DNA of 45,146 nt. It comes from Pseudoxanthobacter soli DSM 19599 (GTDB lineage: Bacteria > Pseudomonadota > Alphaproteobacteria > Rhizobiales > Segnochrobactraceae). The DNA is taken from the NCBI GenBank assembly GCA_943372725.1, contig CALRZT010000001.1, forward strand, positions 1 to 45,146, in the 5' to 3' direction. Shown in pieces: positions 25,054-27,902 of this stretch (positions within the stretch are counted from its first letter, which is position 1; the number at the start of each line of letters is the position of its first letter). The notes beneath the pieces are model-generated. The model saw only the letters and a program-made list of their open reading frames with translations, ran no database searches and was not told where the DNA came from. Made by a program: the position numbers and the translations under genes.

Positions 25054-25311
25054 ATGCCCCTCTCCATCAAGGACCCCGAAGCGGACCGCCTTGCGCGGGC
25101 TGTCGCGGCGAAGACCGGCGAAACCATCACGCAGGCCGTCGTCACGGCACTTCGCGAACGCCTCGCCCGCGAGGTTCGGAAGGGGGCGGACAACGACGAC
25201 CTGCTGGAGGAGGTGCTCGAAATCGGGAGGCACTGTGCCTCCTTGCCAGTCTTGGATAAGCGCTCCGACGAAGAGATTCTCGGTTACGACGAGCACGGAC
25301 TGCCCGGATGA
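25054..25311 (+). CDS. vapB: VapB family antitoxin (ribbon-helix-helix type)
   Basis: [29 protein letters not shown]; [10 protein letters not shown] tail; ATGA overlap with the toxin. Confidence 0.9.
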
Positions 25312-25700
25312 TCCTCGACACGTCGGCAATCATGGCCCTGCTTGGCCGTGAACCGGAGGCGGCGCGCATCGCCCGTGCCGTACTAGGTTCGGCCACCCGC
25401 CGTGTTTCGGCCGCGACCCTGGTCGAGGCGGGGATCGTCGTCCAGGCGCGGTTCGGTGACGACGGCGCGCGCGACCTCGACCTTCTCGTCGCCAAGCTCG
25501 CGCTCACGATCGAGCCGGTCACGCCCCGCCAGGCGGACCTCGCGCGGCGCGGCTTTCGCCGCTACGGCAAGGGTCGCCACCCGGCCGCATTGAACTTCGG
25601 CGACTGCTTCGCCTATGCCCTCGCCAGGGACACGGGGGAGCCACTGCTCTACAAGGGCGACGACTTTGCCCGGACCGACGTGACCGCCGCCCCGTATTGA
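25308..25700 (+). CDS. vapC: VapC family PIN-domain toxin
   Basis: [47 protein letters not shown]. Confidence 0.92.
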
Positions 25701-25739: not shown

Positions 25740-27902
25740 ATGCCCGAACTCCTGCTCGAACTGTTCTCCGAAGAAATCCCGGCGCGCATGCAGCGGCGGG
25801 CGGCGGCCGACCTGAAGGCGCTGGTGACCGACGGCCTCGTCGCCGCCGGCCTCGCCTACGAGAACGCCGTCGCCTACGCCACGCCGCGCCGGCTCGCCCT
25901 GCGCGTCACCGGCGTGCCGGTGCGGTCGAAGGACGTCGAGGAGGAGCGCAAGGGGCCGCGCGTCGGTGCGCCGGAACAGGCGGTTGCAGGCTTCCTGAAG
26001 GCGGCGGGGCTCACCTCGCTCGACCAGGCCGAGATCGTCGCGGACGCCAAGAAGGGCGAGTTCTACGTCGCCCGCACAAGCAAGCCCGGCCGCGAGGCGA
26101 CGGACGTCCTGGCCGAGATCGTTCCCTCGGTGGTGCGCGCCTTCCCGTGGCCGAAGTCGATGCGCTGGGGCGCCGCCTCGGCGGAAGCCGGCGCGCTGCG
26201 CTGGGTGCGGCCGCTGCACTCGATCCTCTGCACCTTCGGCCCGGAGACCGAGGAGCCGGACGTGGTGATCGTCGACGTGTCCGGCGTCGCCTCGGGCAAC
26301 ACGACGCATGGCCATCGCTTCCATGCGCCGGCCGCGATCACGGTCCGCCGCTTCGACGACTACGTCGACAAGCTCGACAAGGCGCACGTCGTGCTCGATG
26401 CCGACCGCCGCAAGGACATCATCCTGCACGATGCCCGCGACCGCGCCTTCGCGCTGGGGCTGGAACTCGTCGAGGACGAGGGGCTGCTGGAAGAGGTCGC
26501 CGGCCTCGTCGAGTGGCCGGTGGTGCTGGTCGGCTCCTTCGACAAGGCGTTCCTTCGGATCCCCGACGCGGTGATCCGCTCGACCATCCGGGCGAACCAG
26601 AAGTGCTTCGTGCTGCGCGATCCGGCCACCGGCCGGCTCGCCGAGCGCTTCGTGCTGACGGCCAACATCGAGGCGAAGGACGGCGGCAAGGCGATCGTCG
26701 CCGGCAACGAGCGCGTCGTCCGCGCGCGGCTGTCGGACGCCCGCTTCTTCTACGAGACCGACCTGAAGCTGCCGCTCGAGACGCGGCTCGAGAAGCTGAA
26801 GTCCGTCACCTTCCACGAGAAGCTCGGCACGCAGTTCGAGCGCGTCGAGCGCATCGCCCGGTTGGCGCGCGAGCTCGCGCCGCTGGTCGGCGCCGATCCC
26901 GACAAGGCCGAGCGCGCCGCCCGCCTCGCCAAGGCGGACCTCGCCACCGAGATGGTCGGCGAGTTCCCCGAGTTGCAGGGCCACATGGGCCGGCACTACG
27001 CCGAAAAGCAGGGCGAGGACCCGGAGGTCGCGGCGGCGATCGAGGAGCACTACAAGCCGCAGGGGCCGTCCGACTCCGTTCCGACGGCGCCGGTCTCGGT
27101 GGCGGTGGCGCTCGCCGACAAGCTCGACATGCTCGTCGGCTTCTGGGCGATCGACGAGAAGCCGACGGGCAGCAAGGACCCGTATGCGCTCCGGCGGGCG
27201 GCGCTGGGTGTGGTGCGGATCGTGCTCACCGGCGCTCACCGGCTGGGCCTTCTCGCGACCCTCTCCCCCGTCATAGCCCGGCTTGACCGGGCCATCCATT
27301 CTGGCGACGACAGGCGTGAGGCACTCGGGATGGATCGCCCGGTCAAGCCGGGCGATGACGGCGTGGGGGGACTGGCGACGGACCTCCTCGCCTTCCTCGC
27401 CGACCGCCTGAAGGTCCAGCTCCGCGAGCAGGGCGCGCGGCACGATCTCGTCGATGCCGTGTTCGCGCTGCCGGGGCAGGACGACCTCGTGCTCGTGGTC
27501 AAGCGGGTCGAGGCGCTCGGAAAATTCCTCGAGACGGAGGATGGCAAGAACCTGCTCGCGGGCACGCGGCGGGCCGCGAACATCCTGCGCATCGAGGAGA
27601 AGAAGGACGGCCGCGCCTTCGACGGCCCGGTCGACCCGGCCCGGCTCGTCGAGCCGGCGGAGAAGTCGCTCTATGAGGCGATCGTCGCGGCCAAGGCGAC
27701 GGCGGCCGACGCCGTGGCGCGCGAGGACTTCGCCGCCGCGATGGCCGCGCTCGCGAGCCTGCGGGCGCCGGTCGACACGTTCTTCGACGCCATCCTCGTC
27801 AACGCCGACGACAAGGCCGTGCGCGAGAACCGGCTGACGCTCCTGAACGAAATTCGCGCCGCGACGCTGACGGTGGCCGACTTCTCCAAGATCGCCGGCT
27901 GA
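25740..27902 (+). CDS. glyS: glycine--tRNA ligase beta subunit (carries an in-frame palindromic insertion)
   Basis: [71 protein letters not shown]. Confidence 0.97.
27268..27361. repeat. CGTC-type REP doublet inside the glyS coding sequence
   Basis: Arms ccgtcatagcccggcttgaccgggccatcca (27268-27298) and tggatcgcccggtcaagccgggcgatgacgg (27331-27361) are complementary at 29 of 31 positions; each contains the hairpin gcccgg-N5-ccgggc. Confidence 0.9.

What the first reader, a model, noticed from the sequence alone, without database searches (positions are those of the whole stretch)
27261..27371. Palindromic REP doublet inserted in frame and translated inside the essential glyS gene
Seen: a 94-bp element with 31-bp arms (29/31 complementary, CGTC-tagged, each with its own hairpin) lies in the coding frame without a stop. 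It encodes about residues 510-541, [32 protein letters not shown], and uses codons rare in this gene (ATA, CTT, TCT, AGG, GCA). The antisense strand gives nearly the same peptide ([10 protein letters not shown]...[11 protein letters not shown]). It sits between the [11 protein letters not shown] helix and the [10 protein letters not shown] segment. Established: CGTC-family REPs are normally intergenic, and Rickettsia palindromic elements are the precedent for repeats creating new peptide in housekeeping proteins. Inference: selfish DNA generating de novo protein sequence in a permissive loop, possibly a family whose reading frames are stop-free and so tolerate coding insertion. The long mRNA hairpin might also pause ribosomes or direct processing.
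Basis: partly seen in the sequence, partly recalled or inferred. Interest (0 to 1): 0.8.

Follow-up and report, generated by a model that had tools for sequence, protein, structure and literature searches.

The report
Repeat pair fills swappable GlyRS segment
A known type of palindromic DNA repeat pair sits in frame inside the glycyl-tRNA synthetase beta gene, where it likely supplies part of a helix, at a spot that close relatives fill with completely unrelated sequences and that distant relatives have filled with the same repeat type in the same reading frame.

Summary
The element is real: a head-to-head CGTC-3 REP dimer (27269-27360) in frame in the only glyS found in this genome. Its kind is published. 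Di Nocera 2013 lists in-frame CGTC-3 dimers in other genes and other REPs in glyS, and this scan noted REP-in-glyS in five other genomes.

The 'stop-free family' idea fails: 1 of 18 dimers is coding, and 43 of 108 frames are open versus 52.6 in shuffles.

What is new is the site. The segment between two conserved motifs spans 43-176 aa across the order. Among the 18 closest proteins (95-99% identical), 9 carry the repeat and 9 carry 7 unrelated segments; two of those have relatives only in distant GlyS proteins. The same repeat type occupies this segment in several other lineages (monophyly rejected), at four codon positions, always in one frame. In that frame the left arm is predicted to complete an amphipathic helix. 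The arms here are this genus's own variant, and the spacer matches intergenic copies better than an orthologue, which points to ongoing conversion. The likely mobiliser is an Ssn-like GIY-YIG nuclease, not a transposase. Translation of the insert is untested.

The parts
25740..27902 (+). glyS, glycyl-tRNA synthetase beta subunit, 720 aa; the only full-length match in G000 (genome 89.7% complete)
   Evidence: Foldseek top hits are GlyRS structures
27210..27380 (+). Hypervariable, replaceable segment of GlyS (about residues 491-547) between the [11 protein letters not shown] and [10 protein letters not shown] motifs
27258..27268 (+). C-rich left flank typical of the repeat family, probably element-derived (codons 507-510)
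   Evidence: flank consensus of 33 dimers
27269..27298 (+). Left REP arm: CGTC tag, 9-bp stem, 5-nt loop, CCA tail; encodes [10 protein letters not shown], predicted in helix 504-520
27299..27330 (+). 32-nt spacer, closer to intergenic dimers (z 7.6, 6.8, 5.7) than to the orthologous G003 glyS spacer (z 1.8)
27331..27360 (-). Right REP arm, identical to the commonest arm in the genome (13 exact copies including this one); on the sense strand it encodes [10 protein letters not shown], predicted as a low-confidence loop
27361..27371 (+). G-rich right flank typical of the repeat family

Best explanation
A head-to-head CGTC-3 REP dimer from this genus's own repeat pool occupies, in frame, a replaceable segment of GlyRS beta, and is likely translated and tolerated because in this frame its left arm is predicted to complete an amphipathic helix while the rest forms a loose loop. 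Shown: identity of the repeat, open frame, genus-specific arm variant, hypervariability of the segment, and recurrence in other lineages in one frame. Inferred: (1) the dimer likely arrived in an ancestor of the genus through an Ssn-like ssDNA-nuclease-assisted event; (2) it is likely refreshed by gene conversion with intergenic dimers, using the arms as homology; (3) it is one allele of a cassette that is likely swapped between glyS genes of different lineages by recombination in the conserved flanking motifs; (4) selection likely keeps only insertions whose frame gives the helix-compatible peptide.
For: Arm anatomy and peptides match CGTC-3. The genus arm variant has 17, 31 and 16 copies in G000, G001 and G003, and 0-1 in the 11 other genomes searched. 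Two arm variants found in other lineages' glyS have 0 copies in those three genomes. The spacer matches intergenic dimers better than the orthologue. Repeat-bearing GlyS is not one clade (p-AU 2e-6, 20 vs 30 rows). All 15 loci of a frame-blind right-arm scan and all 12 of a frame-blind left-arm scan use one frame; the tag sits 93, 99, 102 or 105 nt from the DPY motif. AlphaFold with alignment gives helix 504-520 (pLDDT 78 then 66) and a loop at 529-542. Hydrophobic moment is 0.66 in the used frame versus 0.08 and 0.21 in the other two. Nine of the 18 closest proteins carry 7 unrelated segments. In G001 the segment is 50% GC and carries recoded flanking motifs; its only convincing relatives among 1.84 billion proteins are two GlyS fragments 60-62% identical in the C-terminal part. 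REP-GIY-YIG-REP units with CGTC-3 arms occur in G063, G064 and G065.
Against: There are no protein or ribosome data. RNA-library contigs of a relative run through the element, but that library covers the whole region with mixed organisms, so transcription is not shown. The only Ssn-like gene in G000 and G001 is flanked by a different long-loop CGTC family, and G003 has none found. The arms do not match the published SRM pattern. The two frame-blind sets overlap, and 11 of the 12 share one position, so the number of independent insertions may be as low as 4-6. Helix confidence over the arm is only moderate (66). No high-identity empty site exists, so insertion boundaries and any target duplication cannot be read. 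The tree was a quick LG+G4 tree with redundancy removed (158 of 307 rows), and the repeat-positive rows were enriched by the query.
Confidence: 0.68

Rival explanations
1. One ancient insertion, inherited vertically in Hyphomicrobiales and lost or replaced many times, with arms kept current by conversion.
For: 11 of 12 carriers in family f41 share tag position 102 and an upstream His-x-x-Val. Their pre-tag DNA is more diverged (58%) than the backbone (80%), so that allele was not recently transferred. Within genus g1 the repeat allele is spread over the clade.
Against: There are four different positions and lineage-specific arm variants. Only 12 of 401 genomes in f41 carry it, and 0 of 101 more distant GlyS hits, so very many losses would be needed.
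Confidence: 0.15
2. A purely neutral passenger in a floppy surface loop, with the frame uniformity due to shared ancestry or a fixed target nucleotide rather than to helix formation.
For: The segment accepts 14-149 aa of unrelated sequence. Both G000 and G003 arms carry non-synonymous changes. Decayed versions exist (P0116, P0120). Residues 521-542 are low-confidence.
Against: The same frame is used at four positions, although the alternative frames are open and are used in other genes. The predicted helix replaces the E. coli helix aligned to this spot.
Confidence: 0.3
3. The dimer is kept for a DNA- or RNA-level role: an Ssn cut site that promotes cassette exchange, or an mRNA hairpin that pauses ribosomes or directs processing.
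For: Arms stay near-identical at synonymous sites while flanking DNA is much diverged. The hairpin is strong. SsnA cuts ssDNA just upstream of CGTC repeats and modulates recombination in Neisseria (PMC11893778).
Against: Conversion alone explains the arm identity. Segment swapping is as intense among Microvirga-named proteins, where no repeat allele was seen. No cognate nuclease unit was found in G000.
Confidence: 0.12
4. The repeat family is pre-adapted for coding insertion by being stop-free.
For: Each arm has two of three frames open.
Against: 43 of 108 frames are open versus 52.6 in shuffles, with 3% of shuffles as low. Only 1 of 18 dimers is inside a gene-like frame.
Confidence: 0.03

Closest known systems
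Intragenic CGTC-3 REP dimers (Di Nocera, De Gregorio & Rocco 2013, PMC3733652, Additional file 3)
   Same: Same tag, stem and loop lengths, head-to-head heterodimer layout and nearly the same peptides, listed in frame in R. palustris DNA polymerase I, DnaE2 and CobN, X. autotrophicus UvrC and S. novella genes.
   Different: No CGTC-3 entry for glyS in the rows seen. The paper says REPs in genes of one category are mostly at different sites, whereas here one segment is hit repeatedly in one frame.
REP insertions in glyS of Erythrobacter litoralis (CGTC-1 dimer, residues 398-423) and Xanthomonas oryzae (GTAG-1, 601-607), same paper
   Same: Same gene, in frame.
   Different: Different repeat families and, by residue number, different sites. 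I did not align those proteins.
Ssn nucleases and SRM/NTS repeats (Chenal et al. 2025, PMC11893778)
   Same: CGTC-tagged hairpins flank about 95-aa single-domain GIY-YIG genes in repeat-gene-repeat units. Seven such loci with CGTC-3 arms were seen in G063-G065.
   Different: These arms fail the published SRM pattern. Mobilisation by Ssn is only a hypothesis in that paper. G000's own unit uses another arm family.
Rickettsia palindromic elements (RPE-1, RPE-4, RPE-6; as described in PMC3733652)
   Same: Palindromic repeats translated inside housekeeping proteins.
   Different: RPEs are intragenic at many loci of one genome. Here only 1 of 18 dimers is.

Membership tests
CGTC-3 REP | Unpaired CGTC tag at one end | tested here: met
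CGTC-3 REP | 9-bp stem starting with AT, 5-nt loop, CCA tail | tested here: met
   Arm sequence against the text definition; the left arm has one stem mismatch
CGTC-3 REP | Mostly head-to-head heterodimers with 20-100 bp spacers, dispersed and mainly intergenic | tested here: met
   18 dimers with spacers of 20-100 nt, 17 outside gene-like frames
CGTC-3 REP | Match to the Figure 2 consensus | not testable with these tools
   Figure not held; encoded peptides match the CGTC-3 rows of Additional file 3
SRM / Ssn system | Match to the degenerate SRM pattern | tested here: not met
   No match in either arm; the pattern also matched in only 2 of 11 GIY-YIG loci tested
SRM / Ssn system | Same arm type flanks a small GIY-YIG gene in the same genome | tested here: inconclusive
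   Met in G063, G064 and G065; not met in G000, G001 or G003; G000 is 89.7% complete
SRM / Ssn system | GIY-YIG gene belongs to cd10448 and cuts the repeat as ssDNA | not testable with these tools
   Only PF01541 membership and size were checked
GTAG REP / RAYT system | GTAG tag and a linked Y1 transposase | tested here: not met
   The tag is CGTC; no PF01797 match in G000
MITE | Target-site duplication and a cognate DDE transposase | tested here: inconclusive
   Flanks are complementary rather than direct repeats; no high-identity empty site; DDE transposases not searched

The most novel reading that the evidence does not exclude
The end of the GlyRS beta HD domain in Hyphomicrobiales is a true exchangeable cassette under diversifying pressure, for example from phage or toxin proteins that bind the synthetase. 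It is swapped between distant lineages faster than the rest of the gene changes by 1%. The REP dimer is a self-renewing default allele: its Ssn cut sites prime exchange, and its de novo peptide has been recruited several times independently to build a structural helix of an essential enzyme.
Probability: 0.2. Interest if true: 0.8.

Novelty: new variant of a known kind. Interest (0 to 1): 0.45.

Why it matters
The single insertion is ordinary. The site offers a natural replicate experiment: the same non-coding repeat type has become protein sequence at one place in an essential enzyme several times, always in one frame, so one can test whether helix compatibility decides which insertions survive. 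It also exposes a segment of GlyRS that is replaced by unrelated, often low-GC sequence between proteins that are 99% identical elsewhere. I found no description of this in three literature searches, and its driver is unexplained. Finally, it links CGTC-3 repeats, for which the 2013 survey found no transposase, to Ssn-like nucleases.

Tried and rejected
Stop-free family: rejected.

Y1/RAYT transposase: none in G000. No remnant of a second Ssn-like gene in G000 by tblastn. The SRM pattern does not match.

Single-sequence AlphaFold was useless (pLDDT 39.5); the alignment-based model was used instead.

The order-wide pattern scan (0 of 401) missed G000 itself because my pattern was wrong. It is discarded; the corrected pattern passed its controls.

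RNA evidence: X15/X16 contigs cover the whole 19-kb region with mixed organisms, so they cannot show transcription. The joint skipping 27226-27374 with 42 letters between lies on a contig with about 15% differences and is another organism's short allele, not splicing. Sequencing runs with small shares were not used for habitat.

Pfam found no domain in the insert or in six long foreign segments. The Atlas look-up of the G001 segment was unavailable. The third hit (P0234, 24 residues of a repeat protein) was taken as chance.

Recent horizontal spread of the position-102 allele: not supported. PMC11602168 had no passage on in-frame elements.

Full report
Observation. The element is as described. 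Two 31-nt arms at 27269-27299 and 27330-27360 are 29/31 complementary and enclose a short spacer. They lie in the 720-codon glyS frame, starting at residue 510. The RNA fold is far more stable than shuffles (z = -6.5). glyS has one full-length match in G000, which is 89.7% complete.

What the repeat is. G000 holds 37 arms within 6 mismatches, as 18 head-to-head dimers and one single, against none in a reversed-genome control. Each arm has a CGTC tag, a 9-bp stem, a 5-nt loop and a CCA tail, which fits CGTC-3 in Di Nocera et al. 2013 (PMC3733652; I read parts 1-5 of 8 of the text, and parts 2-3 of 3 of Additional file 3; Figure 2 and the other supplements were not seen). That table already lists CGTC-3 dimers in frame in DNA polymerase I, DnaE2, CobN and UvrC with nearly the same peptides. 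It also lists other REP families in glyS of E. litoralis and X. oryzae. The scan itself noted REPs in glyS in five other genomes (unchecked AI notes). The basic event is therefore known.

The stop-free idea. Only the glyS copy of the 18 dimers has coding-like codons on both sides in one open frame. The dimers have 43 of 108 frames open against a mean of 52.6 in 200 shuffles. The family is not pre-adapted for coding insertion.

The site. Between the two conserved motifs the distance is 43-176 aa in most loci from across the order (5 of 50 loci gave no anchor and one was mis-anchored). A search with residues 150-490, blind to the insert, returned 18 proteins at 95-99% identity. Nine carry the dimer and nine carry 7 mutually unrelated segments. 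The closest proteins, at 99%, lack the repeat. In G001 the segment is 149 aa at 50% GC, and the foreign DNA begins inside the conserved upstream motif with recoded codons. Its only convincing relatives among 1.84 billion representative proteins are two GlyS fragments whose C-terminal parts are only 60-62% identical to G001's. The P0122 segment likewise resembles that of P0165, 63% identical in the C-terminal part. I infer that the segment is exchanged between glyS genes by recombination in the flanking motifs. Three paper searches (listings only) showed no description of it.

Recurrence. A search with the insert region returned repeat-derived peptides at this site in 116 of the best 120 proteins. 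Many are near-duplicates of one lineage, and the query favours them. A frame-blind DNA scan of 185,579 genomes for the right arm plus the downstream motif gave 15 loci (two from one assembly), titled Alsobacter, Bosea, Beijerinckiaceae, Methyloceanibacter, Rhodoplanes, Pseudolabrys, Afipia, Bradyrhizobium, Xanthobacteraceae and one Rhizobium bin; all 15 use the same frame. A frame-blind left-arm scan found 12 of 401 genomes in family f41, in 8 of 54 genera, again all in that frame; these sets overlap. The tag lies 93, 99, 102 or 105 nt from the upstream motif. On a tree of the upstream backbone (158 of 307 rows kept after removing redundancy, 50 repeat-positive), the state changes 27 times against 42.7 for shuffled labels. 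Holding 20 repeat-positive rows together against 30 others is rejected (p-AU 2e-6). Against over-counting: 11 of the 12 f41 carriers share position 102, and their pre-tag DNA is more diverged than the backbone (58% vs 80%), so that allele may be a single old one.

Local origin and refreshment. The arm variant in this glyS has 17, 31 and 16 exact-pattern copies in G000, G001 and G003, and 0-1 in 11 other genomes. Two variants found in other lineages' glyS are absent from those three genomes. The G000 spacer is much closer to intergenic dimers (z 7.6, 6.8, 5.7) than to the orthologous spacer in G003 (z 1.8), although the flanks are nearly identical. Conversion from intergenic copies, or re-insertion at the same base, is the likely cause.

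Protein consequence. An alignment-based AlphaFold model (mean pLDDT 88.7) places the left-arm residues in helix 504-520 (pLDDT 78 falling to 66) and the right-arm residues in a loop with pLDDT near 50. The E. coli sequence has its own short segment aligned here. The hydrophobic moment of the left arm is 0.66 in the used frame and 0.08 or 0.21 in the others. The alternative open frames are used in other genes, so helix compatibility is a plausible filter. This is a prediction. Translation is untested, and the RNA libraries available could not show transcription.

Mobiliser. G000 has no Y1 transposase match. Among 21 small GIY-YIG loci fetched from 11 genomes, 9 have a CGTC hairpin within about 60 bp, 7 of them of CGTC-3 type. 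In G064 the arms around such a gene share an inner extension with the arms in its glyS. This is the repeat-gene-repeat layout of Ssn nucleases, which cut ssDNA a few bases upstream of such repeats (PMC11893778; I read the abstract, passages and sections 8 and 12; supplements not seen). That paper proposes, but does not show, that these units spread the repeats. Against a direct link here, the single Ssn-like gene of G000 and G001 is flanked by a different long-loop family, G003 has none found, and the arms fail the SRM pattern.

Verdict. A real, known kind of element at a site with unreported behaviour: repeated occupation in one frame, predicted helix recruitment, conversion with intergenic copies and wholesale swapping with foreign segments. 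I rate it a new variant of a known kind, interest 0.45.

Noticed in passing
window 25054-25700: A small antitoxin-like ORF (85 aa) and a PIN-domain gene (130 aa, PF01850) sit between glyQ and glyS: a VapBC-type pair inside the operon.
   Followed up: no
L031 (G001 glyS), P0008, P0125, P0142, L036; equivalent to window about 27470: A second insertion site after the [10 protein letters not shown] motif carries 30-80 aa extras, several with PSPLAGEG / PLTPTLSP-type peptides of another palindromic repeat family. It is empty in G000.
   Followed up: partly
L066 (G000:C306) and L068 (G001:C48): A 95-aa GIY-YIG (Ssn-like) gene among long-loop CGTC dimers; that arm has 23 BLAST matches in G000.
   Followed up: partly
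L074-L095 (G063): One Pseudolabrys-titled assembly has 10 small GIY-YIG genes, several tightly flanked by different CGTC arm types. Most CGTC-3 arms are missed by the published SRM pattern, so Ssn-repeat links may be undercounted.
   Followed up: partly
L051 and L059: One Beijerinckiaceae assembly has two glyS contigs, both with a decaying dimer at this site; possibly mixed strains.
   Followed up: no
P0032: A GlyS protein with an N-terminal DUF559 fragment and the repeat peptide; fusion or mis-called start not checked.
   Followed up: no
G000:C34 6260-6418 and C106 11011-11170: Two long dimers with identical arms and 99-100 nt spacers; similar long forms occur in G001 and G003.
   Followed up: no
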